Shown here piece after piece: positions 1,387 through 18,467 of a stretch of 64,000 bases of DNA. The notes beneath the pieces are model-generated. The model had not been told where the DNA came from, searched no databases, and saw nothing but the letters and a program-made list of their open reading frames with translations. The stretch lies in NCBI GenBank assembly GCA_963787135.1, contig CAWBBW010000046.1, positions 1,532 through 65,531 of the forward strand, in the 5' to 3' direction. The position numbers and the translations under genes were made by a program. Within the stretch, counting starts at the first letter, position 1. Each line of letters begins with the position of its first letter. This DNA comes from an uncultured Alphaproteobacteria bacterium (GTDB lineage Bacteria; Pseudomonadota; Alphaproteobacteria; Rhizobiales; Beijerinckiaceae).

Positions 1387-1400
1387 GCGCCTTCCCGCAT

Positions 1401-3145: not shown

Positions 3146-3159
3146 TGGCGGAGACGGAG
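3146..3159 (+). repeat. att core repeat (distal end of the tRNA-Ser island)
   Basis: TGGCGGAGACGGAG is identical to 18374-18387, the last 14 nt of tRNA-Ser; lies 153 bp upstream of the integrase. Confidence 0.9.
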
Positions 3160-3280
3160 ACCGCCTAACCCCTGTCCAGCATTGTGTACCGCTGTCTTGT
3201 AAGACACTGTAAATACAGGCGTTTAATCCACCACTTGTCCACAGCAGTCTATTGACGTCGCCCCGCAGCCATGATTTAAG

Positions 3281-3300
3281 TTGGGGCAGAAGTTAGGGCA
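3281..3300 (+). promoter_or_regulatory. Paired integrase arm-type sites
   Basis: TTGGGGCA (3281) and TTAGGGCA (3293) 12 bp apart; the same pair occurs at 18299/18311 and, inverted, at 9418/9430. Confidence 0.65.
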
Positions 3301-3312
3301 AAGGCGGCGATC

Positions 3313-4533
3313 ATGGCTATCCGGCAACGCAAGCAGAACCTACTGACAGCGCGCGAACTCGCGAGCGCGAAGAAGCCGGGGCGCTATTCCGACGGGAACG
3401 GCCTCTATCTCGTGGTTCGACCGGGCGGCTCAAAGCAGTGGGCCTTCATCTACCGGCGCGGGGGCAAGCTGCGCGAAATGGGCTTGGGCTCGACGCTGAA
3501 AGGCGTGACGCTGGCAAAGGCGCGCGAACTACGGGACGAGGCGCGGGCGGCGCTAGCGTACGGCTCCGACCCGCTCGATACTCGACGCGAAGCCGAGACG
3601 ACCATCCCGACGTTCGGCGCCTACGCGCTCGCGCTCGTCGATCGCATCGAGGAGGGCTTTTCCAATCCGAAGCATCGCCAGCAGTGGCGCAATACCCTCA
3701 CGGAGTACGCAGCGCGGATTTGGAGCAAGCAGATCGACCAAGTGGACACAGCCTGCGTCTTGGCCTGTCTCGCACCGATTTGGCAGACGAAGCCCGAAAC
3801 CGCGTCACGTGTGCGCGGCCGGATCGAGCGCGTGCTCAATTCCGCGAAGGCAGAGGGCTATCGAACTGGTGAGAACCCGGCCGCATGGCGCGGGCATCTG
3901 GATGCGACGCTACCGAAGCCGAGGAAGCTCACCAGGGGCCATCATGCCGCCCTGCCCTACGACGACATGCCCGCGTTCATGGCCGAGCTTCGCCGCCGCC
4001 CGGCGCTTGCAGCGCTCGCGCTCGAACTGACGGTTCTGACAGCGACGCGCACGAGCGAAGTGCTGAATGCCGAGTGGCCCGAGTTCGACCTCGACGCGGG
4101 CTTGTGGACGATCCCGGCCGCGAGGATGAAGGCCCGCAAGGAGCACCGCGTCGCTCTGTCCGCTCGCGCGCTCGCCATCGTCAAGGAGATCGCCGCCGCT
4201 CGAACCTCGAAATTCGTGTTTCCCGGCCAGAAGCCCGGCAAGCCGCTTTCCAACATGTCGATGCTGATGTTGCTTGAGCGCATGGGTCGCGGGGCGCTGA
4301 CCGCTCACGGTTTCCGATCGTCATTCTCAGATTGGGCCTCCGAAGTCAGCCCGTTCCCGTCCGAGCTTCGCGAGAGCGTTCTCGCCCACACGATCGGCAA
4401 CAAAGCCGAAGCCGCCTACCGTCGCGGCGATGCGCTCGAAAAGCGCCGGGCGATGATGGAGGCATGGTCGCAATGGTGCGAGCCACGCGCGCCTGCCGAC
4501 AACGTGACGGTGTTCCGCACCTTGAGCGCATAG
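3313..4533 (+). CDS. Tyrosine integrase, P4/IntS-like with N-terminal arm-binding domain
   Basis: 406 aa; N-terminal YSDGNGLYLVV; catalytic R (ATRTSE), HGFR, LAH and AAYRR tyrosine. Confidence 0.96.
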   Translation: MAIRQRKQNLLTARELASAKKPGRYSDGNGLYLVVRPGGSKQWAFIYRRGGKLREMGLGSTLKGVTLAKARELRDEARAALAYGSDPLDTRREAETTIPTFGAYALALVDRIEEGFSNPKHRQQWRNTLTEYAARIWSKQIDQVDTACVLACLAPIWQTKPETASRVRGRIERVLNSAKAEGYRTGENPAAWRGHLDATLPKPRKLTRGHHAALPYDDMPAFMAELRRRPALAALALELTVLTATRTSEVLNAEWPEFDLDAGLWTIPAARMKARKEHRVALSARALAIVKEIAAARTSKFVFPGQKPGKPLSNMSMLMLLERMGRGALTAHGFRSSFSDWASEVSPFPSELRESVLAHTIGNKAEAAYRRGDALEKRRAMMEAWSQWCEPRAPADNVTVFRTLSA

Positions 4534-4634
4534 ACGACGCAGAGACGGGCGGGGATAGGCCGGCCAGCCGACAAGCCGAGACGCACCCTCGGCTTCCCCG
4601 CTCTCCTTTCGGTGCAAACGCAGGTGCGCGCGAC

Positions 4635-5234
4635 ATGGAAAGCCTTCCCTACATCACCGTCTATGAGGCGGTACGGCTCATCGTTGCAATGTTGCCGGGC
4701 GGCGAGCCGTTCCCGCCGACCCTGACGGACGAATGGATCAGGGGCGGATATGCGATGGAGGAGCCCGAAGGATCAAAACTTGTCGCGATCTATCGCGAGG
4801 CCGTCGACCTATTGAAACGCGCCGTCAGATCGCCGGACGTGCGGATCACTGGCGTATCGGCCAGCAGACGCGCTGACGGGCGCCGGGAGATCAGGGACGA
4901 GGAGCGGGGATTGAGGCTCGAAATGCGGTGGGGCCTATTCAGAGGAGACGCGACCATCGCCCCCGCGTTCCTCGACCCGCTCATATGCGCGGACGCCCTG
5001 AAGCGAGAGATTACGGACCTTCTCGACCCGCCGCGCTTTGGTAGCAATGCGTACAAGCAGCGGGCCGTTGATCAGCAACTCACCCGATATGCAGCGGCGC
5101 TGGACGACATGGGACCCGAGGAAGCGGTCCGCGTCATCACCAAGCGCGTCGCCCGCGAACACAAGGGCTTGTCCGTTGGCCGATCAATGATCATCGAGCG
5201 CCTCGCTGATCTCAAAAAGCGGAGCGCTGACTAG
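4635..5234 (+). CDS. Hypothetical protein
   Basis: ATG at 4635 in the 4332..5234 frame; 199 aa between integrase and xis-like gene. Confidence 0.6.
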   Translation: MESLPYITVYEAVRLIVAMLPGGEPFPPTLTDEWIRGGYAMEEPEGSKLVAIYREAVDLLKRAVRSPDVRITGVSASRRADGRREIRDEERGLRLEMRWGLFRGDATIAPAFLDPLICADALKREITDLLDPPRFGSNAYKQRAVDQQLTRYAAALDDMGPEEAVRVITKRVAREHKGLSVGRSMIIERLADLKKRSAD

Positions 5235-5244
5235 CCGCGCAAAC

Positions 5245-5269
5245 TCGGCAAAAGTCGGCAAAAGTCGGC
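5245..5269 (+). repeat. 10-bp tandem repeat (TCGGCAAAAG x2.5)
   Basis: tcggcaaaag tcggcaaaag tcggc in the intergenic region upstream of the xis-like gene. Confidence 0.8.
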
Positions 5270-5329
5270 TGAGACAGGCGGCGAAAACTGTACTTATTAG
5301 GAGACCTTCTCGAAGCAGGAAGGTCACCA

Positions 5330-5518
5330 GTGCAGCCCCAAGTCAATCCCCCGAAAGCGCGTCGCGTTTTAGACGCCTGCGCCGCGATCGGCATTTCCCG
5401 AGCGAAACTCTACCGCCTCCACCAGCACGGCAAGGTCAAATTCACCAAAATCGGCGGAAGGACGCTGATTTCCGAAGCTGAACTCGATCGCCTAGTGCGC
5501 GAGGGCGAGGAGGCGTGA
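5330..5518 (+). CDS. Excisionase/AlpA-like helix-turn-helix protein
   Basis: 62 aa; DACAAIGISRAKLYRL...KIGGRTLI pattern; AGGAAG ribosome-binding site. Confidence 0.85.
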   Translation: MQPQVNPPKARRVLDACAAIGISRAKLYRLHQHGKVKFTKIGGRTLISEAELDRLVREGEEA

Positions 5519-6456
5519 CACCCGAGGGGGCGTCCGGAGCCGCGCTTGATTGCGAGCGCGACCCCGGAGCTTCTGATCATCGGTCGGGCGGCCGGTGCGA
5601 AGCTACGCCTACAGCAGCCATAGCGCGACAGCACCGCACCATGTGTGACTGCGCGCTCGCCTATGCCCGGCTCGGCATGGCCGTCTTTCCCGTCTGGCCC
5701 GGCGAGAGCAAAAATCCACTCACCGCTCACGGTTTCAAGAACGCGTCGACTGACGAAGCGACCATCCGCGCGTGGTGGAAGCGATGGCCCTTTGCCGAGA
5801 TCGCATGGGCCGTGTCGCATGAGTTCGTTGTCGTCGACCTTGACGAAAAGCACGGCCACCACGGCCTCGACGATTTCCTCGTGCGCGAGGGCGTCCATCC
5901 CTTCGACGTCGACACGCCCATTGCCACCAGCCCGAGCGGCGGCGCGCATCTGTACTTCGCGACCTGCGGCGAGAAGTTCCAGAACAAGACCAACATCGCG
6001 GGGACGGGGATCGACCTTCGCACGATCGGCGGCTACGTCGTCACGCCCGCGTCGAACAACGGCCGCAAGTGGCTGAAGACCCTCGAATGGCCGGTTCTCC
6101 CGGTTCCCGCATGGGTTCCGCGCGCGTCGGTTTCCGAGCCCCATGAGGTCGGGGAAGCCTCCGAGTTCAAGGGCACCACGTCCTACTCGACGGCGGCGCT
6201 CCGGATGGCGGTGCGATCCATCCGCTCAGCCCCCTGCGGGTCGCAGGAAGCCACGCTGAACCGCGAATGCTTCTGCATCGGATCGCTCGTCGGGGCAGGG
6301 CAACTCGACGCCGAAACGGCGCTCAAGGCCCTCCTGTCCGCCGCGGAGGCAATGGTCGCCCATACCTCACCTTGGGGAGACCTTACACCGAAAGTCGCCC
6401 GTATTTTCAAGCAGGGCAGGGCGAAGCCGCGCAAGCTCAAGGAACAGCAGTCGTGA
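5515..6456 (+). CDS. Bifunctional DNA primase/polymerase (Prim-Pol)
   Basis: LAYARLGMAVFP, VVDLDEK, SPSGGAHLYF, GIDLRTIGGYVV motifs; GTGA overlap with upstream gene (start could instead be 5641). Confidence 0.9.
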   Translation: MTPEGASGAALDCERDPGASDHRSGGRCEATPTAAIARQHRTMCDCALAYARLGMAVFPVWPGESKNPLTAHGFKNASTDEATIRAWWKRWPFAEIAWAVSHEFVVVDLDEKHGHHGLDDFLVREGVHPFDVDTPIATSPSGGAHLYFATCGEKFQNKTNIAGTGIDLRTIGGYVVTPASNNGRKWLKTLEWPVLPVPAWVPRASVSEPHEVGEASEFKGTTSYSTAALRMAVRSIRSAPCGSQEATLNRECFCIGSLVGAGQLDAETALKALLSAAEAMVAHTSPWGDLTPKVARIFKQGRAKPRKLKEQQS

Positions 6457-7964
6457 ACGCCATGTCTTCTGCCCCAAAGGTTCTGTACCCGCATCAGCAG
6501 CGCGCGCTCGACGAGATCAAGCAAGCAATCGCGGACGGCAAGAAACGGATCATAGTTCAGGCACCGACCGGCTTCGGCAAGACGCTGACCGCTGCGTGGT
6601 TGATCCGCGAATACATCGAAACAGGCGGCCGTATCATTTTCACGGTGCCGTTTCTGTCGCTGATCAAGCAGACCGTAGAGGCGCTATGGGCGGAAGGGTT
6701 TCGAGGCTGCGTCGGCGTGATCCAGGGGAAACACCGTCTCACCAACCCCATGATGCCGATACAGGTTTGCTCTGTGGAGACGCTTCGGCGACGGGACATC
6801 CCCCGCGCCGCGCTTGTCGTCGTCGACGAGGCGCACCGTCAGTTCGAGTTCGTGCAAGACGAGTGGATGGCCGATCCGGAGTGGGCGAACACGCCGTTCA
6901 TCGGGTTGTCGGCGACGCCGTGGAGCGTCGGGCTCGGGAAACACTGGAAAGACTTGATCATCGCCTCGACGACGCGGGAGTTAATCGACCTCAAGTTTCT
7001 GTCGGATTTCGTCGTCTATGCGCCAAGTCAGCCCGACCTGACCGGCATCAAGACCATCGCCGGAGACTACCACGAGGGCCAACTCGCCAAGAGGATCGAC
7101 CAGCCGAAGCTAGTCGGCGACGTGATCGAGACATGGATCAAGCGCGGCGAGAACCGCCCGACGCTCTGCTACGGCATCAACCGCGCCCACGCGGAACACC
7201 TTCAACAAAGGTTCGTCGAGCGCGGTATCGCCGCCGAATACATGGACGGCTTCACCGAGCGTGATGATCGTGAACGCACATTCGACAGGTTTCGATCCGG
7301 CGAAACGAAGATCATCTGCAACGTAGGCGTGCTTACGACTGGCGTAGACCTGCCGTTGACCTCATGCATTATTGACGCAAGGCCGACGAAATCGGAAAGG
7401 CTCTATGTCCAGACGATTGGGCGTGGCTTGAGGACTTCGCCGGGCAAAGATAAGTGCATCGTCCTCGATCACGGCGGAAACGCCTTACGCCTCGGGCTGG
7501 TAACCGATATCCACTACGACAAGCTGGACGACGGGAAACACGGCGCCGCCGGGGATGCGCCTGAGCCTCCGGAGCGAGGCATCCCGTTGCCTCGTGCTTG
7601 CGAGAAATGCGCGGCCGTCCTGCCGGCGAAGTCGATCACGTGCACCGAATGCGGACATGTCAGGGAGGCGAAATCACAGGTCGTCCACGCGGACGGCGAA
7701 CTCGTCGAATACGGATCGGGCGAGCATGAGGCATGGGTTGCGACCATCGCCGACCAGACCGCCTTCTATTGCGAGTTGATGTGGATCGTCGGCGATCGTG
7801 GACACAAGGAGGGATGGGCGGCTCACAAGTTCAAGGAGCGGTTCGGCCATTTCCCCCCGTGGGGCTGGCGCAGCCTTCCGTCCCGCGAGCCGAGCCTTGC
7901 CACGAAGAACTGGATCAGGTCGCGCAATATCGCCTGGGTAAAGGGGAGGGCGGCTCGTGGCTAA
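6453..7964 (+). CDS. Superfamily 2 DEAD/DEAH-type helicase with C-terminal zinc ribbon
   Basis: APTGFGKT, VDEAH, GLSATP, QTIGRGLR; CEKC...CTEC; GTGA coupling at 6453. Confidence 0.92.
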   Translation: MNAMSSAPKVLYPHQQRALDEIKQAIADGKKRIIVQAPTGFGKTLTAAWLIREYIETGGRIIFTVPFLSLIKQTVEALWAEGFRGCVGVIQGKHRLTNPMMPIQVCSVETLRRRDIPRAALVVVDEAHRQFEFVQDEWMADPEWANTPFIGLSATPWSVGLGKHWKDLIIASTTRELIDLKFLSDFVVYAPSQPDLTGIKTIAGDYHEGQLAKRIDQPKLVGDVIETWIKRGENRPTLCYGINRAHAEHLQQRFVERGIAAEYMDGFTERDDRERTFDRFRSGETKIICNVGVLTTGVDLPLTSCIIDARPTKSERLYVQTIGRGLRTSPGKDKCIVLDHGGNALRLGLVTDIHYDKLDDGKHGAAGDAPEPPERGIPLPRACEKCAAVLPAKSITCTECGHVREAKSQVVHADGELVEYGSGEHEAWVATIADQTAFYCELMWIVGDRGHKEGWAAHKFKERFGHFPPWGWRSLPSREPSLATKNWIRSRNIAWVKGRAARG

Positions 7965-8397
7965 GGGCATGAACGGCGGGACAGACCGCTTCTTCAAGCT
8001 GCACCACTACATGCTCAAGAGCGAGGAGTGGCAGGCGATGTCCGCCGGCGCGAGCCGTGTCTACATCCAACTTGGTTCTCGCTACAACGGGAGCAACAAC
8101 GGGACGCTGGCGATGTCCGCGCGGGACGCCGCTAAAGAGTGCCGGCTCAACAAGGACACGGCGGCGAACGCCTTCAAGGAGCTTATCGAGCGCGGTTTCA
8201 TCGTGGAGACGCGCCACGGGAGCCTGAGCCGCAAGACCCGCATCGCCAGCGAGTGGAGGCTGACAGCATTTCAGTGCGACCTGACCGGCGCACCCGCGTC
8301 GAACCTGTTCATGGAGCGGGGCGCACAAGCGCGTGACAGCCGCATGGCGCGAGCCCGGCCGCAGGCAAAGCTGCACGTGGTTCAGGCAGCCGAATAA
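7957..8397 (+). CDS. Winged-helix protein, putative replication initiator
   Basis: SARDAAKECRLNKDTAANAFKELIERGFI helix-turn-helix; directly followed by iteron-like repeats. Confidence 0.7.
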   Translation: MAKGMNGGTDRFFKLHHYMLKSEEWQAMSAGASRVYIQLGSRYNGSNNGTLAMSARDAAKECRLNKDTAANAFKELIERGFIVETRHGSLSRKTRIASEWRLTAFQCDLTGAPASNLFMERGAQARDSRMARARPQAKLHVVQAAE

Positions 8398-8425
8398 CAC
8401 AAATTAGTGGCGTCAAATTCCTGGG

Positions 8426-8547
8426 CCTGTCCGAAACGAAGGACAGTCCTGTCCGAAACGAGGGACAGTCCTGTCCGGTTTTAGGGGACAGCCTGTCCTA
8501 AACGAGGGACAGTCGAGGGGGTTCGCCTGTCCGGTTTTAGGGGACAC
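8426..8547 (+). repeat. Five 22-bp iteron-like repeats (putative origin)
   Basis: Units at 8426, 8448, 8470, 8492 and 8526, each CCTGTCC-N8/9-GGACA(G). Confidence 0.9.
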
Positions 8548-8949
8548 ATATAGATGTCTACCATCTCCCCCCAAGGGAGAGGGGTCTATTCTTAACCCCG
8601 CCGAGCCCAGCCAGCCGACGCCGGACCCGGACGAACCGAAGCCCAGCGGAGCCCAGGGCGATGGTCGCTCTTGACGACGTCGCCGTCGCACTGACCGGCG
8701 AGCCGTCGTGCTGATAGGACGTTGCAGGCCAGCGCGGTATCTTGATACCACACGCGCACGCGCGAGCGCCCTGGGCTGACAGGGAACACGTGTCCTATCC
8801 GCGCGCCGTCCGGCCTCCGAACATTTCGCGCGGCGCTGTCAGATCGCCGCGGTCAGCGATTTCCTGGCAGCGCTGCCCCCGTTGACGTGTGGTAGACTTC
8901 CGGTGCGAAAGTTCTGCCGATCAGACCTTGACCTCTTTGGGGCTCCGTC

Positions 8950-9240
8950 ATGAAGGCGATGATGGCTGCGGCGGTTGGTCTGTTGCTCGCTGCGACGCCT
9001 GCGGGTGCCATGACCGGGCAAGAGTTCCTACAAGTGTACGACGACAGTCCCCTGGTGGAGGAGCCTGCCGTTATGAAGCCACTCGTGCGCCAGTTTGTCA
9101 GCGAGGGCTACCATAACGTTCCCGGCTGGGCTTACCTTGGCGAAATGACGCACGCGCTGATCCTCGAAAAGGGTTACCGCGACAAAGACATTGCCGAGAT
9201 CGCGAGGGAGGCGGCGATCGCAAATGGCATGTCCAAATGA
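8950..9240 (+). CDS. Secreted hypothetical protein
   Basis: 96 aa; signal peptide MKAMMAAAVGLLLAATPAGA. Confidence 0.65.
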   Translation: MKAMMAAAVGLLLAATPAGAMTGQEFLQVYDDSPLVEEPAVMKPLVRQFVSEGYHNVPGWAYLGEMTHALILEKGYRDKDIAEIAREAAIANGMSK

Positions 9241-9348
9241 GGATGACCTTGGCGTCTGTGTCGTCGACCGTCACATCGCGATCATCTTGGCGATGGCCGG
9301 TAGCTGCAAGGCCGGCTGCTGGCTGCCGGCTCGCATAGGCGTGGCGGA

Positions 9349-9437
9349 CACCGCCTCCGCCGACACATATGCCTAACATATTGAAATAACTGGACTACGC
9401 GTGCAAAAACAGCGACTTGCCCCAACGTTTGCCCCAA
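9349..9437 (-). repeat. Inverted internal copy of the tRNA-proximal att arm (arm sites, IHF-like site, degenerate core)
   Basis: Reverse complement aligns without gaps to 18299-18387: 24/28 identity over the arm repeats, IHF-like site at the same offset, 11/14 core match. Confidence 0.75.
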
Positions 9438-9885
9438 TCAGAAGGCGATGATCGCCTCGACATGCCGCTCCGACGCCCGCCCAGATGACCAGGGGAACGC
9501 CGCGAAGATGGTCGCCTCGATATGCTGGCCGCTCGTCACCCTCCGTGCTCGCCGGCCCTCCCCGCCGCCAGCCGCCACGCCCCGATCGCAGAAATCGCAC
9601 CCTCCCACCGGCCTTCAATCGGCAGCTATAACGACCAGCGGGAGTAAAATTGAAGGTCTGGCGCGGCCCTCGTCCTCTGCCCGCGAGCTAGACCACTTCC
9701 AAACACCCCCCTGTCAGATTTTTTCATCAGCCTCAGAAACCTTTCGTACAATGCTGTCGGAATAAAATGGCCGCTAGGCGTGTTCACAATTGGGTGCAGA
9801 GCTTCGCCCGCGCTTGGCGGCCCCTCGGCGGCCCGGATTTCGGCATTTCCATCCGGGCCGCCTTGCGCGCGTTGCGCGCTGAAAC

Positions 9886-9903
9886 TTCAGTCACAGGACT
9901 GAA
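9886..9903. promoter_or_regulatory. Palindrome, possible operator
   Basis: TTCAGTC-ACAG-GACTGAA in the non-coding region upstream of the second module. Confidence 0.35.
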
Positions 9904-10082
9904 AAGTTCGGCGGGTGAGCGTCTGCTCCTCCGCCCTCTCCGCCCCGATCCTTTTACGTGTCCCGCCGGTGCGTTGGCGGCCCCTAGCTTTGCCTGCATG
10001 TGTGCAACGCACCGACCTACGGAGCCTGCTTTTGCCTCGTTTGCGTCCCCGTCCTGAGCCGTCCGACCACCCGACGAATAGT

Positions 10083-10730
10083 ATGGGTGCGGTGGAGCTT
10101 GTGAAGCGCGCGAAATCGCGTGGTCGTGATCCGGTCGACACTGAGGGGATGATCCCGTTCACGCGGCGCTATGTGGACGGGCCCCGCGAGATTTCGCGTC
10201 GTCAGGCTGCGGCTATCCGTCTCGCCGTATGGGGCGGGTTCGTTGACGTGCTCGATCCTGTCCCGCTGGCGGACGCCTGCCAGCGCGTAGGGCTCCAAAG
10301 GCGATCGGCGAAGCGCTTGCTTCAATCCTCGGTCTTTGTCGCCGCGCTTGCGGAGGCCCAAGCCGAGCGCCTTGCCCAAGAGGCCGCCCGCGCTCCGTCC
10401 TTGCCTCTCGCGGTCAACCCCCCTGTCATCACCCCGCCGCCTGCCGGCGAGGCTCCTGAGCCCGCCCCCGCCGGCTCCGAGCGCGACCCGGCTGAGACAT
10501 TCCCGATGGTCCGGCTCCCTGCGACCGATGAGCGCCACGGCAGCCTTGCCCGCCCGCCCGCCGGCTATGTCGCGCCGGCCGCCCCCGTCGACGGCAAAAT
10601 TCTCAAGAGCGGCGTCGTCGAGTTCGATCTTCGCAAGCATCGCGAGCGCTACCCGTTCGCCGGCGACGTCGCCACCCAGCGTTCAACCATCATCCCGCGT
10701 TCCCCCCGCCGTTCACTGAGGAAGGTCTGA
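10083..10730 (+). CDS. HTH protein, terminase-small-subunit-like (paralogue of 11965-12483)
   Basis: ATG at 10083; PVPLADACQRVGLQRRSAKRLLQSSVFVAAL aligns with PMTLAQAARLLGVPLRKARELADSPIFAAEL. Confidence 0.5.
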   Translation: MGAVELVKRAKSRGRDPVDTEGMIPFTRRYVDGPREISRRQAAAIRLAVWGGFVDVLDPVPLADACQRVGLQRRSAKRLLQSSVFVAALAEAQAERLAQEAARAPSLPLAVNPPVITPPPAGEAPEPAPAGSERDPAETFPMVRLPATDERHGSLARPPAGYVAPAAPVDGKILKSGVVEFDLRKHRERYPFAGDVATQRSTIIPRSPRRSLRKV

Positions 10731-10732
10731 CA

Positions 10733-11047
10733 ATGGCAAAAGTTCTCCACACCGACGAAGCCGCCATCAACCGCGCCTCCCTCGCAAGGTGGGACGAGGT
10801 TTACGCCCTGCTCGTCGACTATCAAGGCCGTGCGCAGTGGGCGGTGGCGCACCTGAACCCCGAGGTCACCCCGCGTCGCCTGCGCCGCTTCCGCCTGCTC
10901 GATCGCCTTCAAGGCAAGTGGACCGATTTGGACGGCAACGCATCTGGCCCCGATGTCATTTCGCTCGTGGCGTTCTTGGCCGACGTCGATCGCCTGACCG
11001 CGACCGCCTTTCTCGCCGAGCTCGTCGCCGAAAGGGCCGCCGCGTGA
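10733..11047 (+). CDS. Hypothetical protein resembling the N-terminal domain of phage primases
   Basis: GKWTDLDGNASGPDVISLVAFL recalls the W-x-D...G-x-D-x-I-x-L pattern of primase-associated domains. Confidence 0.45.
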   Translation: MAKVLHTDEAAINRASLARWDEVYALLVDYQGRAQWAVAHLNPEVTPRRLRRFRLLDRLQGKWTDLDGNASGPDVISLVAFLADVDRLTATAFLAELVAERAAA

Positions 11048-11367
11048 AGCCCGCCGCGCACATGCCCGGCGACTTCGCTCACACGCCCGCCTATCTCGCC
11101 AAGAAAGTCGAGGTCCGCGCCGACGCGCAAGCGGCTTTACTTCGCCCAATCCGGTCCTACGATGAATTGCGCCGCGCCATCGACGCGCGGCGTAAGATGT
11201 TGGGCCTCACGATGCTCGAACTCGACGAAAAGTCCGGCTGTCAGCAAGGCTATTCAGCCAAGTTGATAGCAGGCGTAAAGCACTTTGGTCCCGGTTCTCT
11301 GGAATGGATAACTGGAGCCTTAGGTATAGACCTTATAATCATCGAACGCAGATCAACAGGAGACTAA
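11044..11367 (+). CDS. XRE-like helix-turn-helix protein
   Basis: GTGA overlap; RRKMLGLTMLELDEKSGCQQGYSAKL HTH pattern. Confidence 0.7.
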   Translation: MKPAAHMPGDFAHTPAYLAKKVEVRADAQAALLRPIRSYDELRRAIDARRKMLGLTMLELDEKSGCQQGYSAKLIAGVKHFGPGSLEWITGALGIDLIIIERRSTGD

Positions 11368-11369
11368 CA

Positions 11370-11543
11370 GTGAACAAGAAATCAAACGTTCCCGGCAACG
11401 AACCGACGCACGGCGGCTCCAAGCTCATCGCGGGGACCCTCCGCCTCAAAATGAAGAAGGACGACGCGAGTGTGGTTATTCCGCACGGCAAAGCCTCGAC
11501 CCAGGCGTCCGGCGCGCAGAAAGCCCGCCCCGTCAATAAGTAG
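11370..11543 (+). CDS. Small basic hypothetical protein
   Basis: GTG start with AGGAG ribosome-binding site; 57 aa. Confidence 0.5.
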   Translation: MNKKSNVPGNEPTHGGSKLIAGTLRLKMKKDDASVVIPHGKASTQASGAQKARPVNK

Positions 11544-11598
11544 CCCGGCCGGCGTCTCTGACGGGCGCCGCAACCGATAAACCGCAAGGGAACAGATC

Positions 11599-11814
11599 AT
11601 GGCAGCCGGCAGTCTCAGCGTCACCATCACCCTCCCCTCCTTGAACGGAGCGGGAGGGACCCCAGCCAACACGCTGGGCGCGTCCGCGGCGATCGCCCGC
11701 GAGTTACTTCAACAGGTCGGCCAAGCAATCCACTCGGCCCACACAGCGGCCGGGACGGTTTACTTCCCAGCCGGGACGTCCGTGGGAACGTGGACCTTCA
11801 CGGCGGCAACTTGA
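11599..11814 (+). CDS. Small Gly/Ala/Thr-rich protein, possibly structural
   Basis: 71 aa with AAGGGA ribosome-binding site; beta-rich termini. Confidence 0.6.
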   Translation: MAAGSLSVTITLPSLNGAGGTPANTLGASAAIARELLQQVGQAIHSAHTAAGTVYFPAGTSVGTWTFTAAT

Positions 11815-11815
11815 A

Positions 11816-11968
11816 ATGATCCTGAACGCCCCGGCCATCCCTTCCTATGTGCGGCTCCTGCCGCCGCCGCCGCCGCCGTTGCTGTTCGAGATCGTGCGGC
11901 CGCGCAAGACGCGAACCGGCAATCTGATCGGCATCGTGAAGGCTCCCATGACAGGGGACCGCCGGTGA
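11816..11968 (+). CDS. 50-aa proline-rich protein (not in the supplied ORF track)
   Basis: MILNAPAIPSYVRLLPPPPPPLLFEIVRPRK...; starts 2 nt after the previous stop and overlaps the next start (GTGA). Confidence 0.5.
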   Translation: MILNAPAIPSYVRLLPPPPPPLLFEIVRPRKTRTGNLIGIVKAPMTGDRR

Positions 11969-12483
11969 CAGCGCTCGACGCCAAGGCGCTCGAAATGGCC
12001 CGCCTTATGGCCGAAGGCTCGGAGTTCGACGAAACTGTTGACGGGAAGCCCGTTGCGGCGGGCTGGCCGATGACGCTGGCGCAAGCGGCTCGGCTTCTCG
12101 GCGTGCCGCTGCGCAAGGCCCGCGAGTTGGCCGATAGCCCGATCTTTGCGGCCGAATTGGACCGGCTGCTCAAGGCTCGCCGCGCGAGCGAGAAGGCGCG
12201 CAACTTGAACGTCGCGATCGAGATCAGGGACGATCGGGGCGAGGGCCTCGCGGCCGACCGCACCGTGCGGCTCAAGGCAATCTCCACGATCGAAGGCGTC
12301 GAGAACAAGGGCGTAACCGTCAACGTCAACTCGAACAACCAAACGCTGAACGTCCAGCCGGGATACATCATCCGGTTGCCAGCAAAGCGCGACGCCGCGC
12401 TCGAGGCTCCCCCCATGCGCACGATCGACCATGAGGCCGCTGACATGGTGGCCGTGTCAGCCCGTGACAGCGGGGAAATCTGA
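11965..12483 (+). CDS. Terminase-small-subunit-like protein
   Basis: HTH-like N-terminus, helical middle and C-terminal VTVNVNSNNQ strand, the general layout of TerS proteins. Confidence 0.5.
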   Translation: MTALDAKALEMARLMAEGSEFDETVDGKPVAAGWPMTLAQAARLLGVPLRKARELADSPIFAAELDRLLKARRASEKARNLNVAIEIRDDRGEGLAADRTVRLKAISTIEGVENKGVTVNVNSNNQTLNVQPGYIIRLPAKRDAALEAPPMRTIDHEAADMVAVSARDSGEI

Positions 12484-12485
12484 CA

Positions 12486-12995
12486 GTGGCTCCCGCGAAG
12501 CTTCCCACCTGCCCGCAATGCGGCAAGCGGTTCGCGCCGTGGCGCGCAAAAGCGTACTGCTCTGAGCCCTGTCGAAAGAAGGCCCAGAACGTCCGTCTTG
12601 GATACGTTAGGCGGGATGAGGCTACCCATGTAGCCGCCTCGCCAAATCCTGAAACTTTAGCCCAGCAAAACCGGGCGTCTCCGAGGACGTTTAGGCGGGA
12701 TGAGGGGTTCGAGTGGACGGCCTGCAACGAGGTCACGCGAAAACTCACGCGCGCCGGATCTCCGAACGCGGTCGGCTGGGCGATGCTCATCGATGGTCAC
12801 GGATGGTTCGGGCGCATCGGGAGGGACTTCTCATTCGGCCCGGCGACGCAGTCTCGCGCCAAGTCGGCTGTCGAGGCGCGCTTGCTGGGCGAGCCGTTCG
12901 ACAAGGTCGACGATGAGCGCTCATGGTCGGGAACGTGCTGGCGCCTGCTATCCGGGTCCGAGCCACACACTGACGCCGTCCGCGAGGCGGCCTAA
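12486..12995 (+). CDS. Zinc-finger hypothetical protein
   Basis: CPQCGKRF...YCSEPCRKKA four-cysteine motif. Confidence 0.7.
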   Translation: MAPAKLPTCPQCGKRFAPWRAKAYCSEPCRKKAQNVRLGYVRRDEATHVAASPNPETLAQQNRASPRTFRRDEGFEWTACNEVTRKLTRAGSPNAVGWAMLIDGHGWFGRIGRDFSFGPATQSRAKSAVEARLLGEPFDKVDDERSWSGTCWRLLSGSEPHTDAVREAA

Positions 12996-13015
12996 CCCAC
13001 GGAGTACCTGCCCCG

Positions 13016-13309
13016 ATGACTGACCAGCCCGACTACACGGCGACCCTTCCCGCAGAATTTGCGCATCTGAAAATCGACGAGAAAGACCCCCGCTATGTCG
13101 CCGCGAAGGAGTTCGCCCGCGCCAACAATTTCACGCAGGAAACCTTCACACAGCTTCTCGGCGTCGAGGCCCGTGGGATGTTGGCGAAGCAAGCCCCAGC
13201 GGCTCCCGCAGCGCCGCCCCGGCCGGCTGTCCCCACGAAGCCGTACAGCCAACTTTCTTTCGCGGAGAAGCTCGCGATCGGCGAGGCGCGCAAGAGCGGC
13301 GGCCGGTAG
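13016..13309 (+). CDS. Hypothetical protein, capsid-scaffold-like
   Basis: DYTATLPAEF...IDEKDP...FARANNFTQETFTQLL, Pro/Ala linker and short charged C-terminal helix. Confidence 0.45.
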   Translation: MTDQPDYTATLPAEFAHLKIDEKDPRYVAAKEFARANNFTQETFTQLLGVEARGMLAKQAPAAPAAPPRPAVPTKPYSQLSFAEKLAIGEARKSGGR

Positions 13310-13366
13310 CACCGGATCGGTGCCCGAGAGAGCCGATAAGGGCTTTCTCTTTTTTCGAAAATCAGA

Positions 13367-14215
13367 CTATGCATGGCATTCGTCGTCTATGCAGTTTCCC
13401 TCACGATGGTGAGTGGAACCGAAGTGAAGCACTCCCGGGGTTGGGGGAGAGCCTTGGGTGTTCGGGATGAAGCCATAGGGGTCGCCCGTGATGTGGATGA
13501 CCCAGCAGAATTTAGTAATATGCTTCTTAGTCCTTGGGAAAACGTCATTGTATTCGACCCATCCCCACAGATAAATGAACCGTCGGCCGTTTTGGCACTC
13601 CACGATATCTTGGGGAGAGATAAAGCGACCAAGTGGCGCAAGCCCTCCTTGGAGTTCAAATTTGGGGGGAATAGTTCCAGTGATTACGTTGGCCTCTACT
13701 GCGGTGAAATCGAACCCATCCGGAAGTCGGCTGTCGAGGATTTCGCAATTAACGTAGGTCCTCATTCCTCTTGTTGGGGTGTCTCCACTATTGCGCAGCA
13801 CGGGTCTGAACTGCCAAGCATACACACCGGTGATTTCGTCCTTGGTCCAAGTCTGGTTGAAGGTTGTAACGAAAACAAAGGCTTTCTTGTCAGCTATCAG
13901 CGCTTCCCGGGTGAGTTGAGCTTGACGACTTGTTGCCATCCACAATGTTCCGGTGAATGCGGCGATGAGGAGTGTAGCGATGGCGGTGATGGCCGCATTC
14001 TCACGACGTATGTATCTAGCGGTGCACCGGGAAGCGATGACGCGGCGGACGATGAATTGGGACAGACGTTCCGGATGCTCTGGGGCGCTTGTTTCTGCAT
14101 ATTGTTTGGCTTGGCACTCTTGAAATTTAGATGAAAATTCTCTGGCCCCAATCAATAGCGTTGTCGCCACGACAAATAGCGCAAACGCTATCAGAACTTC
14201 ATATTTGTTCAGCAT
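13367..14215 (-). CDS. Membrane-anchored hypothetical cargo protein
   Basis: ATG at 14215; two hydrophobic segments followed by a soluble domain; more AT-rich than flanks. Confidence 0.7.
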   Translation of the reverse strand: MLNKYEVLIAFALFVVATTLLIGAREFSSKFQECQAKQYAETSAPEHPERLSQFIVRRVIASRCTARYIRRENAAITAIATLLIAAFTGTLWMATSRQAQLTREALIADKKAFVFVTTFNQTWTKDEITGVYAWQFRPVLRNSGDTPTRGMRTYVNCEILDSRLPDGFDFTAVEANVITGTIPPKFELQGGLAPLGRFISPQDIVECQNGRRFIYLWGWVEYNDVFPRTKKHITKFCWVIHITGDPYGFIPNTQGSPPTPGVLHFGSTHHREGNCIDDECHA

Positions 14216-14554
14216 CCTTTGATCGCCGTCCCAAAGATATCTGCGTTCTCGCGGGTTGTTGTAGCGGAATTGGAACTCAGCGACCATCCGCCTATCGTAG
14301 GAAGCCCCTGTGGTCAGCCACTCGACCAGGGCGCGGCGGATGACACGCGCGCGATAGTCCCTCCGGGTCGCAGCCGCGTCGATCGCAGCCGTCGGGTCAG
14401 GCGGCTGCGCGTCATAGTATATCAGACAGCGCCGCTCTGGCATCCCTCGCCACCAGCCAGTCTGTCACGCTCAGCCGCTCGGACACGGCGGATCAGGATT
14501 GCGAGAGCCACAAAAATGGGCCAATCTACACCCGGTTCCGGATAAGGGGGTTCT

Positions 14555-15154
14555 ATGATGAAGCGCATTCTGGCGGGCGCGACAGCGCTTGCGTTCGTCC
14601 TCGGTGCGTCGGCGGTCGAGGCCAGCGTGGTTCCCGGCTCGATCTTCGGCGGACCAGCGACAGACTTCGAGGGGTCCGACGCCTATGGCAATGAGTGGAA
14701 TTGGGAGGTTCGGGCGATTTTGCCCGGTATGCCGGCCTTCTGGGTGGACGGGACAGAAACAGTGGGCTTCCCCTACACGGGGAGCCCCAACGCGACAGAT
14801 TTCGAGATCGTGTTCCCGGGTCTGGCCGTCGTCGGAAGCGCGATCCAAGCTGGGTCATTCTGCGCAGAAGTGAATGTCACCCCGTTCGGCGCCGACTGCG
14901 ATTATTGGAACTCCTCGATCTCGGGCGACCAAGTTACTTTCACGGCGCCGGCCGGAACGTCGCTGACTTCCGGACAGCCTTACGCCATCGAGATCGTGTT
15001 CACAAACCAATACGCCGCGGGCTCGGGCTTCCATGCGTATTTCACATCCGGCGTGCCGGAGCCGTCGACCTGGGCAATGATGGCGCTTGGCTTCGCGAGC
15101 CTCGGCTACGCGGGGTATCGCCGGGCAAAGGGGAACGCCGCCCTCGTAGCCTGA
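14555..15154 (+). CDS. PEP-CTERM sorting-domain surface protein
   Basis: Signal peptide plus C-terminal VPEPSTWAMMALGFASLGYAGYRR. Confidence 0.9.
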   Translation: MMKRILAGATALAFVLGASAVEASVVPGSIFGGPATDFEGSDAYGNEWNWEVRAILPGMPAFWVDGTETVGFPYTGSPNATDFEIVFPGLAVVGSAIQAGSFCAEVNVTPFGADCDYWNSSISGDQVTFTAPAGTSLTSGQPYAIEIVFTNQYAAGSGFHAYFTSGVPEPSTWAMMALGFASLGYAGYRRAKGNAALVA

Positions 15155-15180
15155 CAGCGCGACTAGCCCGAACGACGTGA

Positions 15181-15213
15181 AGCCCGTCGTCATAGCGGCG
15201 GGGTTTTTCTTTT
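15181..15213 (+). terminator. Rho-independent terminator
   Basis: CCCGTCGT-CATA-GCGGCGGG stem-loop followed by GTTTTTCTTTT. Confidence 0.7.
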
Positions 15214-15246
15214 GCCCCGCGCCCAAGGCCGCGATGTGTGGGCGTT

Positions 15247-15498
15247 CTAATGGAGCGGGAAAAGCCAAGCGAGAACCGTGACGACGACGGCGATGATGGC
15301 CGCGATAGCGGCGATCCAAGCGGCCATTTGTGTGTTGGCTTGGGCAGCTTTGTTGCGCAAGCGCTCTGCGTCGTCCAGTTCAGCCAACCACTGAGCGGCG
15401 GCGGGGACGAGATTTGACGGCAAGTTGCCCGGGTAGAGAATGCGAACCTTCCCGGCCCCTATCTCCTCTAGACGCCGCCGTGCTTCTTCTGGGTCCAT
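15247..15498 (-). CDS. Small protein with C-terminal transmembrane helix
   Basis: 83 aa; WIAAIAAIIAVVVTVLAWLF. Confidence 0.6.
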   Translation of the reverse strand: MDPEEARRRLEEIGAGKVRILYPGNLPSNLVPAAAQWLAELDDAERLRNKAAQANTQMAAWIAAIAAIIAVVVTVLAWLFPLH

Positions 15499-15557
15499 CG
15501 TGTCCCTCTCAGCCCACCCACCGGGACCATATGCTCATCGTCGCTGCGGTGCAGGGA

Positions 15558-16028
15558 TCATTGATAAGACGGGCTCGTGCAGTGCCAAACAGCCCCGTCG
15601 TGGTCGGAAACGCCATAAGGGGCCCCCGTCACCGAGGGAAGGTATAATTGCCCAAGGCGGGCATCAGAATAATCGCCCGAATACTCGGTCTTAGACCATC
15701 GTATCATGCCAACCTCCACTTCAATACCGGGGTTGCCGAACTGATCAGTGCTTTGCTGTTGGTCTACGTAGTAACTCAAAATCTTGTGCGCGACGGGAGC
15801 GCTACCGGGAATTTCAATTGTCACTGTTCCAGCATCAACATCTACGCTTTCCCTGTCGATCACGCGGGTTGTTCGGTTCTCACATTCAACTGAAAAGCTA
15901 TCAGCGGCCTTTAGGGTATTAGTTCGCTGCTGCCGTGGACTGTCGTATCGGAAGAATTTTGCCTGAGCGGCGCTCGAAAGCAATTGGAGCAACGCGAAAG
16001 CCACTAGCAGTTTCATTATTCCTGTCAT
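15558..16028 (-). CDS. Secreted hypothetical protein
   Basis: Signal peptide MKLLVAFALLQLLSSAAQA; AT-richer cargo. Confidence 0.65.
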   Translation of the reverse strand: MTGIMKLLVAFALLQLLSSAAQAKFFRYDSPRQQRTNTLKAADSFSVECENRTTRVIDRESVDVDAGTVTIEIPGSAPVAHKILSYYVDQQQSTDQFGNPGIEVEVGMIRWSKTEYSGDYSDARLGQLYLPSVTGAPYGVSDHDGAVWHCTSPSYQ

Positions 16029-16360: not shown

Positions 16361-16389
16361 GGAGCGCTGAAATAGGAACCGCTCAAGGC

Positions 16390-18298: not shown

Positions 18299-18362
18299 TT
18301 AGGGCAAATGTTGGGGCAAGCCGTTGCCTGTCTAGAATTAGCGGTGCAATATCAATCACTTA
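18299..18362 (+). promoter_or_regulatory. Integrase arm sites and IHF-type site at the tRNA-proximal end
   Basis: TTAGGGCA 18299, TTGGGGCA 18311; TATCAATCACTTA 18350-18362 matches the IHF consensus WATCAANNNNTTR. Confidence 0.65.
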
Positions 18363-18373
18363 TGTGCTGGCGC

Positions 18374-18467
18374 TGGCGGAGACGGAGGGATTCGAACCCT
18401 CGATAGGGCTTTACAACCCTATAACGGTTTAGCAAACCGCCGCCTTCAGCCTCTCGGCCACGTCTCC
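18374..18467 (-). tRNA. tRNA-Ser (anticodon GCT)
   Basis: GGAGACG/CGTCTCC acceptor stem, GCGGT-TTGCTAA-ACCGT anticodon arm, long variable arm, GGTTCGAATCC T-arm, encoded CCA. Confidence 0.97.

What the first reader, a model, noticed from the sequence alone, without database searches (positions are those of the whole stretch)
9349..9437. A second, inverted attachment arm hidden in the middle of the tRNA-Ser island
Seen: the reverse complement of 9349-9437 aligns without gaps to the tRNA-proximal end 18299-18387. The paired TT(G/A)GGGCA sites match at 24/28 positions and lie 75 and 63 bp from the core in both copies. An IHF-type site (TATCAATCACTTA vs TTTCAATATGTTA) sits at the same offset. The core matches 11/14 (CGGCGGAGGCGGTG vs TGGCGGAGACGGAG) and shares an intact 7-mer, GGCGGAG. 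The site lies at the boundary between the integrase/replication module and the TerS/scaffold/cargo module. Established: tyrosine integrases use arm sites, IHF bending and a roughly 7-bp overlap, and inverted sites give inversion rather than excision. Inference: the integrase may flip 3160-9348 or 9363-18373, giving a recombination switch in a satellite; alternatively this is the scar of a composite of two related elements.
Basis: partly seen in the sequence, partly recalled or inferred. Interest (0 to 1): 0.82.

Follow-up and report, generated by a model that had tools for sequence, protein, structure and literature searches.

The report
Conserved spare integrase site inside island
A 15-kb mobile island at a serine tRNA gene keeps in its middle a complete extra docking site for its own integrase; evolution has preserved the site, but it does not behave like a flip-switch and may instead help the excised, replicating island return to single copies.

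Summary
The double arm motif occurs only three times in the 5.8-Mb genome.

Comparison with 17 arms of the same integrase family shows a full site. It has two arm-type sites, an IHF-like site at offset 51, and a complete core dyad cGGCGGA|GGCGGTG|TCCGCCA.

The shared GGCGGA is the family-wide core half-site, not the crossover region. The central 7 bp differ from the island's own (GACGGAG) at 2 of 7 positions.

Three assemblies of the island and one diverged relative (L060) all show the same orientation. In L060 the core (21/21) and the arm dimer (20/20) are invariant while the spacer is 65% identical and both flanks are unalignable. The site is therefore under selection and is not a scar.

It lies 0.4-0.8 kb from the putative replication origin in both elements. 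Relatives with other integrases carry a serine resolvase gene in that gap.

Best reading (about 0.35): an insulated, one-armed resolution-type site acting on copies of itself. A flip switch with the island ends: about 0.07.

The parts
3146..3166 (+). attL core: half-site TGGCGGA, central GACGGAG, half-site ACCGCCT. 3146-3159 is the 14-bp direct repeat of the tRNA end.
   Evidence: The homology of contig L052 starts exactly at 3146.
3167..3312 (+). Integrase-proximal (Y) arm. It holds TGTCCA-type repeats and a putative int promoter (TTGACG 3252-3257, 17 nt, TTTAAG 3275-3280), followed directly by the arm dimer at 3281-3300.
   Evidence: Sequence. The hexamers and the dimer are conserved in the Y arms of G022 and G003. 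The promoter is inferred, by analogy with KplE1 intS (PMC2951348).
3313..4533 (+). Heterobivalent tyrosine integrase, 406 aa.
   Evidence: Pfam Arm-DNA-bind_3, Phage_int_M and Phage_integrase.
5330..5518 (+). AlpA/Xis-like HTH_17 protein, 62 aa.
   Evidence: Gene calls with PF12728 on identical contigs.
5515..8397 (+). Replication module: Prim-Pol (5515-6456), SF2 helicase (6453-7964), HTH_36 protein (7957-8397).
   Evidence: Pfam; gene calls.
8426..8547 (.). 22-bp dyad iterons; putative origin of replication.
9323..9493 (-). Conserved orphan-site block, 81% identical to L060 5411-5580, with unalignable DNA on both sides.
9342..9362 (-). Complete core dyad. Read on the minus strand it is cGGCGGA | GGCGGTG | TCCGCCA. 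It is the best match to the family dyad in the window.
   Evidence: 21/21 identical in L060.
9374..9386 (-). IHF-like site TTTCAATATGTTA at offset 51 from the dimer.
   Evidence: In L060 it reads TATCAATCGTTTA, a perfect WATCAANNNNTTR, at the same place.
9418..9437 (-). Arm-type dimer TTGGGGCAAACGTTGGGGCA.
   Evidence: 20/20 identical in L060.
9438..9493 (.). Conserved flank beyond the dimer (46/56 identical in L060). It includes GGCGATGATCGCCTCGACATGCCG, which is repeated at 9506-9527. Its role is unknown.
10083..13309 (+). Conserved downstream operon (232/215-aa, 104, 107, 57, 71, 50, 172, 169 and 97-aa genes). It is shared with other integrase-primase-helicase elements.
18299..18387 (+). 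tRNA-proximal (X) arm: dimer 18299-18318, IHF-like site 18350-18362, core 18374-18387.
18374..18467 (-). tRNA-Ser(GCT), the integration target. It is the only gene for this anticodon in the genome.

Best explanation
What it is (about 0.8 sure). 9323-9493 is a selectively maintained orphan recombination-type site for the island's own heterobivalent tyrosine integrase. It has a perfect core dyad with its own 7-bp central region. On one side only it has an accessory arm made of an IHF-type bend site and two directly repeated arm-type integrase sites. The geometry is the same as in every functional tRNA-proximal arm of the family.

How it works (about 0.35 sure; inferred, not shown). The site's partner is another copy of itself, not the island's ends.

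- After excision the island replicates as a circle, using Prim-Pol, the helicase and the iterons.
- In dimers or concatemers two copies of the orphan site lie in direct repeat with identical crossover regions.
- Integrase bound to arm and core sites across the IHF bend would then resolve these multimers to monomers.
- The one-sided accessory arm would give resolution selectivity, as in Tn4430 IRS or cer/psi.
- The different central heptamer insulates the site from attP, attL and attR.
- The inverted orientation means that any rare cross-reaction with the ends inverts DNA instead of deleting half the element.
For: - Family architecture is kept exactly. In 17 arms the dimer is at 0, the IHF-like site at 50-52 and GGCGGA at 75-77. 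The internal site and its L060 counterpart fit this.
- The dyad is complete, TGGCGGA-N7-TCCGCCA with 1 mismatch, better than attL.
- The same dyad occurs with five different central heptamers at attP-like joints. The centre is therefore the specificity or crossover region, and the internal one is private to this site.
- There is purifying selection. Against L060 the core is 21/21 and the dimer 20/20, and the IHF consensus is kept through changes in its N positions. The spacer is 36/55 and the flanks cannot be aligned.
- The functional right-end dimer of the same two elements differs at 5/20.
- The block goes with the integrase family. L063 has another integrase, shares 9507-9615 and the operon, and lacks the block.
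- The site lies 0.8 kb (window) and 0.4 kb (L060) from iteron-type origins, although the iterons and replication modules differ.
- Relatives with other integrases carry a serine Resolvase gene in the same gap between the replication module and the operon (L047, L061/L062).
- One-sided recombinase-binding direct repeats next to a core dyad are the documented design of a tyrosine-recombinase resolution site (TnpI/IRS, PMC2847244).
Against: - There is no direct evidence of any strand exchange at this site.
- Sibling islands with 71-81% identical integrases lack it, although they also carry replication genes.
- I know of no heterobivalent lambda/P4-type integrase shown to use a one-armed site for resolution.
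- The resolvase-in-the-same-gap argument rests on three contigs representing two relative lineages (L047, L061/L062), and L063 has neither feature.
- Conservation of the 7 central bases is only weakly significant (0.65^7, about 0.05) and does not show that crossover matters.
- Only one diverged relative carries the homologous block, so the selection argument rests on a single pairwise comparison.
Confidence: 0.35

Rival explanations
1. Non-recombining integrase-IHF complex. Two Int protomers bridge the dimer and the two core half-sites across the IHF bend, forming a closed attL-like intasome. This stable complex would act as an operator or roadblock between the replication genes and the downstream operon, or as a sink that buffers free integrase and so tunes excision.
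For: - Arm-type sites are known to double as operators for integrase genes (KplE1 IntS, PMC2951348).
- The island's own Y arm has a conserved TTGACG-17-TTTAAG immediately before its dimer.
- The site lies in a 0.7-0.9 kb non-coding gap upstream of the operon.
- A conserved 56-bp flank beyond the dimer suggests further protein binding.
Against: - No sigma-70-like promoter or terminator was found in 8900-10000.
- The distance to the operon start is not conserved (646 against 904 nt), and L060 has an opposite-strand gene in between.
- An operator needs only arm sites, yet the whole 21-bp catalytic-type dyad is invariant.
Confidence: 0.2
2. One reading: Int recombines the internal site with attL or attR and flips 3160-9348 or 9363-18373.
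For: - The sites are inverted and each has an Int-binding core. The internal site and attR both carry the same kind of arm.
- Lambda Int can recombine two attL-type sites in vitro (own knowledge).
- Earlier unchecked notes of this scan describe serine-integrase elements with an internal inverted attP.
Against: - The central heptamers differ at 2/7 (GGCGGTG against GACGGAG). Tyrosine recombinases need matching overlaps.
- Exchange with attR would alter the acceptor end of the only tRNA-Ser(GCT).
- The orientation is identical in G000, in the ERZ25039484 contig, in the SRR28061500 contig, and, for the right segment, in diverged L060.
- Every contig on record that encodes the 92-aa or 96-aa neighbour gene is colinear.
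- No promoter or split gene is positioned to be toggled.
Confidence: 0.07
3. Inert scar. The site is a leftover end of a sibling element that once inserted, or recombined, at a secondary site during assembly of a mosaic island.
For: - The island is a mosaic. Its Int and arms belong to one family whose siblings have DUF927 replicases. Its Prim-Pol/helicase/HTH_36 module belongs to elements with other integrases.
- 4.1 kb (8364-12500) separates two segments that are contiguous in relative L049.
- The dimer sequence equals that of a functional arm in G025.
- The site is absent from sibling islands.
Against: - The functional sub-elements are invariant across about 20-35% background divergence and are better kept than the working terminal arm.
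- Gene order and orientation around it are canonical for this class of element, so no inverted sibling fragment surrounds it.
- The homologue of the 104-aa gene is co-oriented with int in siblings, as it is here.
Confidence: 0.12
4. Trans site. The orphan is a docking or cointegration site for another replicon that carries a matching core, such as a helper phage or another island, using the island's integrase.
For: - Orphan att sites of this family exist on other replicons. A complete 60.5-kb phage with terminal repeats carries an alpA-like gene, an X dimer, a dyad core and a Y dimer, but no tyrosine or serine recombinase.
- A third orphan (L064) has yet another central heptamer.
- G000 shows accretion of a second island at the same tRNA.
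Against: - No partner with the heptamer GGCGGTG/CACCGCC next to arms was found in viral, JGI metagenome or GTDB collections.
- The six other genomic copies of the 13-mer are what chance gives in this G+C-rich genome.
- An attB-type docking site needs no arm.
Confidence: 0.1

Closest known systems
Lambda-type (heterobivalent) integrase attachment sites, in particular the attL half (core, IHF H' site, P' arm sites)
   Same: There are two kinds of integrase sites: arm-type direct repeats, and an inverted pair flanking a 7-bp centre. They are separated by about 55 bp with an IHF-consensus site between them. The integrase has the Arm-DNA-bind_3 N-terminal domain.
   Different: The site is not at an element-chromosome junction. 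Both core half-sites are of the high-quality attP kind. It has only one arm. Its central 7 bp match no partner in the genome.
Tn4430 TnpI internal resolution site (IRS), and functionally XerCD cer/psi
   Same: A tyrosine-recombinase core dyad with recombinase-binding direct repeats (DR1-DR2 in the IRS) or accessory-protein sites on one side only. It lies inside the element and acts on directly repeated copies of itself (PMC2847244; cer/psi from own knowledge).
   Different: The enzyme here is an integrase that also performs tRNA integration and excision. The accessory sites are bound by a separate arm-binding domain and need an IHF bend. Resolution activity is untested here.
KplE1 IntS / PAI-536 integrase promoter control
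   Same: Arm-type and IHF sites overlapping a promoter repress transcription (PMC2951348; PMC7286903 by title and abstract). This fits the island's int-proximal arm.
   Different: No promoter could be found at the internal site, and a catalytic-type core is conserved there.
Site-specific inversion systems (fim switch FimB/FimE, shufflon Rci, yeast 2-micron FLP/FRT)
   Same: Inverted sites for a tyrosine recombinase. As in the 2-micron plasmid, one site lies close to the origin (own knowledge).
   Different: Those systems have identical crossover regions in both sites, and both orientations coexist in populations. Here the centres differ at 2/7 and only one orientation is seen.
Tandem accretion of integrative elements and CIME-type integrase-less elements (ICESt1/CIME)
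   Same: The genome shows accretion at this tRNA (a second island with a 49%-identical integrase), and att-bearing DNA without an integrase exists in this family.
   Different: Accretion leaves internal sites in direct orientation at element boundaries. This site is inverted, lies inside a canonical gene order, and moves with the island as one unit.
Serine-integrase tRNA elements with an internal inverted attP
   Same: A three-site layout: attL, an intact inverted internal site, and attR, with the recombinase gene between attL and the internal site.
   Different: They use a different recombinase superfamily and have no arms or IHF site. In those notes the internal site is reported as an intact spare copy of the element's own attachment site; here the crossover region is different. 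None of this was tested here.

Membership tests
Heterobivalent tyrosine-integrase attachment site (lambda/P4 type) | Arm-type sites identical in motif to those at the element's working ends | tested here: met
   The TTRGGGCA-N4-TTRGGGCA dimer occurs only at 3281, 9418 and 18299 in 5.8 Mb. The motif is specific to this integrase family in about 500 genomes, against 5 hits in all for the reversed control.
Heterobivalent tyrosine-integrase attachment site (lambda/P4 type) | Core of two inverted integrase half-sites flanking a 6-8 bp crossover region | tested here: met
   cGGCGGA-GGCGGTG-TCCGCCA. This is the best dyad in the window. The same dyad occurs with other centres at four other attP-like joints.
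Heterobivalent tyrosine-integrase attachment site (lambda/P4 type) | IHF-type bend site at a fixed position between arm and core | tested here: met
   The site is at offset 51 of 76: one mismatch to WATCAANNNNTTR in the window, a perfect match in L060. It sits at offset 50-52 in most arms of the family. Binding was not tested.
Heterobivalent tyrosine-integrase attachment site (lambda/P4 type) | Two arms (P and P') as in a complete attP | tested here: not met
   There is no dimer or Y-arm motif on the other side. The next TTRGGGCA to the left is a single copy 2.9 kb away.
Heterobivalent tyrosine-integrase attachment site (lambda/P4 type) | Integrase binding and strand exchange at the site | not testable with these tools
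   Needs EMSA, footprinting or ChIP, and recombination assays.
Site-specific DNA inversion switch | Two inverted sites with identical crossover regions | tested here: not met
   GGCGGTG against GACGGAG, 5/7.
Site-specific DNA inversion switch | Both orientations present in populations or relatives | tested here: not met
   G000, L052, L058 and L060 are all colinear across the site.
Site-specific DNA inversion switch | A promoter or coding segment placed so that inversion changes expression | tested here: inconclusive
   No promoter-like or terminator-like site was found in 8900-10000. The scan covers only sigma-70 consensus.
Internal resolution site of a tyrosine recombinase (TnpI/IRS; cer/psi type) | Core dyad plus accessory binding sites on one side only | tested here: met
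   The core is at 9342-9362. The IHF-like site and the dimer are all on the 9363-9437 side.
Internal resolution site of a tyrosine recombinase (TnpI/IRS; cer/psi type) | Belongs to a replicon that can form multimers, and lies near its origin | tested here: met
   A Prim-Pol, helicase and iteron module is present. The site is 0.8 kb from the iterons here and 0.4 kb in L060. The origin function itself is inferred.
Internal resolution site of a tyrosine recombinase (TnpI/IRS; cer/psi type) | Deletion between directly repeated copies; multimers accumulate without it | not testable with these tools
   Needs a two-site plasmid assay and analysis of the excised form.
Scar of tandem accretion or composite element | The site evolves without constraint or is decayed | tested here: not met
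   Core 21/21 and dimer 20/20 against spacer 36/55. The terminal arm dimer is 15/20.
Scar of tandem accretion or composite element | Internal site in direct orientation at a boundary between two complete or decayed elements | tested here: not met
   The site is inverted. The flanking gene order is the canonical one of related single elements.

The most novel reading that the evidence does not exclude
Heterobivalent integrases of this family run a second recombination channel, insulated from integration and excision, on orphan att sites that have private crossover sequences. Two forms of this reading remain open.

- The island's internal site is a working site that, together with attP in the excised circle, drives 2-micron-like inversion and concatemer formation next to the origin.
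- Alternatively, it pairs with orphan sites on other replicons, giving satellite-phage cointegrates. The 60.5-kb phage that carries a full attP and an alpA-like gene but no recombinase would then be a phage that borrows an island's integrase.
Probability: 0.12. Interest if true: 0.85.

Novelty: new variant of a known kind. Interest (0 to 1): 0.55.

Why it matters
Integrases of tRNA-borne islands and satellites are thought to act only at the element's ends. This island carries a third, conserved, catalytic-type site with its own crossover sequence, placed beside the origin. That would mean the same enzyme is reused for another task: multimer resolution, control, or exchange with other replicons.

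It would also give a sequence signature for finding such sites elsewhere: a one-sided arm plus a dyad with a private centre.

The family data add two further points. Insertion orientation at a tRNA can be reversed simply by flipping the central 7 bp of a symmetric core. And a complete phage can carry an attP without any recombinase. Both bear on how islands, satellites and phages share integration machinery.

Tried and rejected
- **An alternative tRNA target for the internal core.** None of the 53 tRNA genes of the genome ends with it; the best have 3 mismatches.
- **A partner site with the same centre.**
  - The six other genomic 13-mer matches lack any dimer or second core half-site in the flanks printed, and their number is what chance gives in this G+C-rich genome.
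  - The 19-mer hits in viral contigs have no arms, and no RNA gene is found there.
- **Homologues of ORF 9915-10730 in 300 family genomes.** None found.
- **Helicase relatives by pattern scan in genome contigs.** None found.
- **Nested inverted sibling element.** Rejected because the 104-aa gene and the whole operon are co-oriented with int, as in relatives.
- **'4.1-kb insertion' into an HTH_36-zinc-ribbon gene (from L049).** The segments are real, but only 3 of 120 HTH_36 homologues carry the zinc ribbon. The direction of the event is open, and the internal site is not at its edges.
- **Analogous internal copies of their own att arms in L061/L063.** Repeat search gave only G+C-rich chance pairs.
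- **Second core copy at the inversion breakpoint of L060.** None found.
- **Arm motif of the second island of G000.** Too unspecific to analyse, with 27 genomic hits.
- **RNA element.** Rfam finds nothing at the site.
- **A lone inverted TTGGGGCA in G031 (L025 10227).** It is a single 8-mer with no dimer, treated as chance.
- **Literature search for natural internal or spare attP sites.** It returned only engineering papers.

Full report
**Setting**

The window holds a 15.2-kb island (3160-18373) inserted at the 3' end of tRNA-Ser(GCT) (18374-18467, minus strand). It is bounded by the 14-bp repeat TGGCGGAGACGGAG at 3146-3159 and 18374-18387.

Gene order from the tRNA-distal end:

- a 406-aa integrase with Arm-DNA-bind_3, Phage_int_M and catalytic domains (3313-4533)
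- a 253-aa ORF
- an AlpA-like HTH_17 protein (5330-5518)
- Prim-Pol, an SF2 helicase and an HTH_36 protein
- 22-bp iterons (8426-8547)
- a 92-aa ORF
- a 0.7-0.9-kb gap that contains the finding
- a nine-gene operon (10083-13309)
- lower-G+C cargo

**The observation**

- rc(9349-9437) aligns without gaps to 18299-18387 at 55/89. The next best 89-mer anywhere in the window scores 43; the background is 22.6 ± 4.1.
- The dimer TTRGGGCA-N4-TTRGGGCA occurs three times in the window, against 0.04 expected. It also occurs only three times in the whole genome: upstream of int, at the tRNA-proximal end, and, inverted, at 9418-9437.

**What the arm looks like in the family**

Integrases 71-81% identical occur in other genomes of the genus. 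I collected 17 arms: 12 tRNA-proximal arms, two arm-core joints followed by non-tRNA DNA (L036, L039), and the three orphan-type sites described below.

- All 17 have the dimer at 0. GGCGGA lies at 75-77 in 15 of them (73 in L043, 89 in L036).
- About ten have a (W)ATCAA-N4-TTR site at 50-52.
- The rest of the spacer is not conserved.

The internal site obeys all three rules. It is as similar to the working arm of its own island as working arms of different islands are to each other.

**The core**

Where the sequence after the core belongs to the element rather than to a tRNA, it reads (A/T)CCGCC(A/T). This holds for win_left, G022, G003 and L039. The core is therefore a dyad, TGGCGGA-N7-TCCGCCA.

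The central heptamer differs between elements that use different serine tRNAs, and between orphan sites: GACGGAG, GGGGGCG, CTCCTCC, AGCCCGC and GGCGGTG. This is the signature of a crossover region between two integrase half-sites.

- The internal site is cGGCGGA|GGCGGTG|TCCGCCA, the best dyad in the window.
- The real centre differs from the island's own at positions 2 and 6.
- No tRNA of the genome ends with the internal core.

**Is it a switch?**

- The same island, 99.98% identical, lies on an independent 32-kb metagenome contig. That contig is colinear from 3146 to 22482 (L052).
- A contig from a third sample is colinear over 6193-10433 (L058).
- Every indexed contig that encodes the flanking 92-aa or 96-aa ORF has this arrangement.
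- Exchange with attR would replace the acceptor end of the only tRNA-Ser(GCT).
- Among about 500 genomes of the genus and family, 31 carry the dimer. Where two lie on one contig they are on the same strand; only this genome has an inverted third.

I therefore put a switch with the island's own ends at about 0.07.

**Is it a scar?**

The decisive comparison came from the operon. Its first protein has few relatives. One of them, contig L060 (ERZ25039465), is a different element: its operon is 76-80% identical at the nucleotide level, it has other cargo, and it has another replication module in the opposite orientation. It still keeps the same right-end arm and the internal site.

Window 9323-9493 aligns to L060 5411-5580 at 81%, with unalignable DNA on both sides:

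| Segment | Identity with L060 |
|---|---|
| Core | 21/21 |
| Arm dimer | 20/20 |
| Spacer | 36/55 |
| Left flank | 17/20 |
| Right flank | 46/56 |

- The IHF-like site changes from TTTCAATATGTTA to TATCAATCGTTTA, that is, in its N positions and towards the consensus.
- At the spacer's 65% identity, 21 and 20 invariant bases have probabilities of about 1e-4 each.
- The working terminal dimer of the same two elements differs at 5 of 20 positions.
- L063 has another integrase, shares the adjacent 9507-9615 and the operon, and lacks the block.

The block is thus under selection and tied to this integrase family. An inert relic gets about 0.12.

The island is nevertheless a mosaic.

- Siblings with this integrase use DUF927 replicases.
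- The Prim-Pol/helicase/HTH_36 module occurs with other integrases.
- The operon is shared with elements carrying DUF5906 or DUF3987 replicases.

**Mechanism**

The features to explain are:

- a catalytic-type dyad
- accessory sites on one side only
- a private centre
- constant orientation
- conservation
- position

The position is informative. The block lies 0.8 kb from the iterons here. In L060 it lies 0.4 kb from inverted ATAACCGCA arrays around an A+T-rich stretch, although the origins are unrelated. In relatives with other integrases a serine resolvase gene sits in the same gap (L047, L061/L062).

A core dyad with recombinase-binding direct repeats on one side is the design of the Tn4430 TnpI resolution site, where the repeats impose resolution selectivity (PMC2847244). 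cer and psi are likewise one-sided (own knowledge).

I therefore favour, at about 0.35, an internal resolution-type site. Its partner would be another copy of itself in multimers of the excised, replicating island. This removes the overlap problem. It explains why the centre differs from attP (insulation) and why inverted orientation is harmless. All steps after 'Int and IHF bind here' are inference.

The rivals are:

- A non-recombining Int-IHF complex acting as operator, roadblock or integrase sink (0.2). The precedent for arm sites as operators is KplE1 IntS, PMC2951348. The island's own Y arm has a conserved TTGACG-17-TTTAAG abutting its dimer. However, no promoter was found at the internal site, and its distance to the operon is not conserved.
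- A site for exchange with another replicon (0.1).
- The switch (0.07).
- The scar (0.12).

**Orphan sites elsewhere**

A pattern for 'dyad + inverted arm' found nothing in 185,579 species genomes. It did find two metagenomic cases.

- L064 (1.5 kb) has an ORF ending 97 nt before a TGGCGGA|GGAGGAG|TCCGCCA core with the inverted arm. The layout matches the window, where the gap is 102 nt.
- The second is a complete 60.5-kb phage with terminal repeats. It carries, in order, an alpA-like gene (39% identical to the island's), the X dimer, a dyad core, the Y dimer and a 95-aa ORF. It has no tyrosine or serine recombinase anywhere.

Integrase-less att sites are thus a recurring feature of this family. 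This keeps the trans reading alive.

Earlier unchecked notes of this scan describe serine-integrase tRNA elements with an internal inverted attP. The parallel is suggestive, but I did not test it.

**Novelty**

Every component is known. What I found no description of is the combination: a conserved, one-armed, catalytic-type integrase site with a private crossover sequence, inside a tRNA-borne replicative island. I rate it a new variant of a known kind, with interest 0.55.

Noticed in passing
window 1-3145; genome contig C32:105190-107779: In the metagenome contig L052 the island's left flank is a DUF1254/DUF1214 gene. In this genome that flank (98.9% identical) lies on contig C32. There it is followed by the core variant TGGCGGAGACGAAG and a second integrase only 49% identical. 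The window's own left flank is other DNA with an IHF-like AACAAGCACTTAA just before the core. This probably reflects tandem accretion of a second, large island at the same tRNA-Ser. The join between C32 and C46 is inferred, not shown.
   Followed up: partly
L065/L066 (IMGVR_UViG_3300021478_000004 = G568), phage coordinates 35491-35915: A complete 60.5-kb phage (terminal repeats, CheckV 100%) carries an alpA-like gene, then a full attP of this integrase family: X dimer, core TGGCGGA|AGCCCGC|TCCGCCA, TGTCCA-type repeats and Y dimer. A 95-aa ORF sits where int would be. No PF00589 or PF00239 recombinase, and no homologue of the island's integrase, occurs anywhere in the genome.
   Followed up: partly
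L027 (G016:C30) 3674-3960 compared with L042/L044: A sibling integrase (71% identical) sits directly next to tRNA-Ser(GGA), with its Y arm abutting the tRNA 3' end. Other siblings target the same tRNA with the X arm abutting it. Because the core half-sites are symmetric, the two types differ by the polarity of the central heptamer (CGCCCCC against GGGGGCG) relative to the arms. Flipping 7 bp would thus reverse insertion orientation.
   Followed up: partly
window 8426-8547: Four to five 22-bp dyad units CCTGTCC...GGACAG lie directly after the HTH_36 gene and are the putative origin. Assemblies of other samples break here: contig L051 ends at 8499.
   Followed up: partly
window 5240-5275; L060 4771-4806: Three GTCGGCAAAA repeats lie upstream of the alpA-like gene. 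They are 94% identical between the two elements although the whole alpA-Prim-Pol module is inverted in L060. They are likely an operator of the replication operon.
   Followed up: no
window 4548-4614: A match to the Rfam int-alpA RNA motif (RF02996) lies just after the integrase stop codon. It scores 35.5 bits against a gathering score of 35.8. It overlaps the 5' part of the 253-aa ORF, whose 3' part is conserved as protein in L060.
   Followed up: no
window 7984-8367 and 12492-12626; L049 11517-12491: In relative L049 the HTH_36 domain and a CPQCG...C zinc ribbon are one 324-aa protein. In the window the two parts are 4.1 kb apart: HTH_36 gene and the N-terminus of the 169-aa gene, the latter 83% identical at the DNA level. 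Only 3 of 120 HTH_36 homologues carry the ribbon, so the direction of the event is open.
   Followed up: partly
L060 206-4806: In L060 the alpA-Prim-Pol-DUF3987 replication module is inverted relative to the 253-aa gene and to the operon. The breakpoints (about 200 and about 4806) are not at the orphan core, and no inverted repeats were found at them.
   Followed up: partly
L064 (Ga0307468_100138416) 393-520: A third orphan 'dyad + inverted arm' site, with centre GGAGGAG, lies between two co-oriented ORFs of unknown function. The contig is too short to tell what element it belongs to.
   Followed up: no
L024 (G022:C3) 4973-5095: A sibling island carries a second copy of the last about 43 codons of its integrase gene, 1.5 kb downstream of the intact gene. 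This is a trace of an earlier rearrangement or accretion.
   Followed up: no
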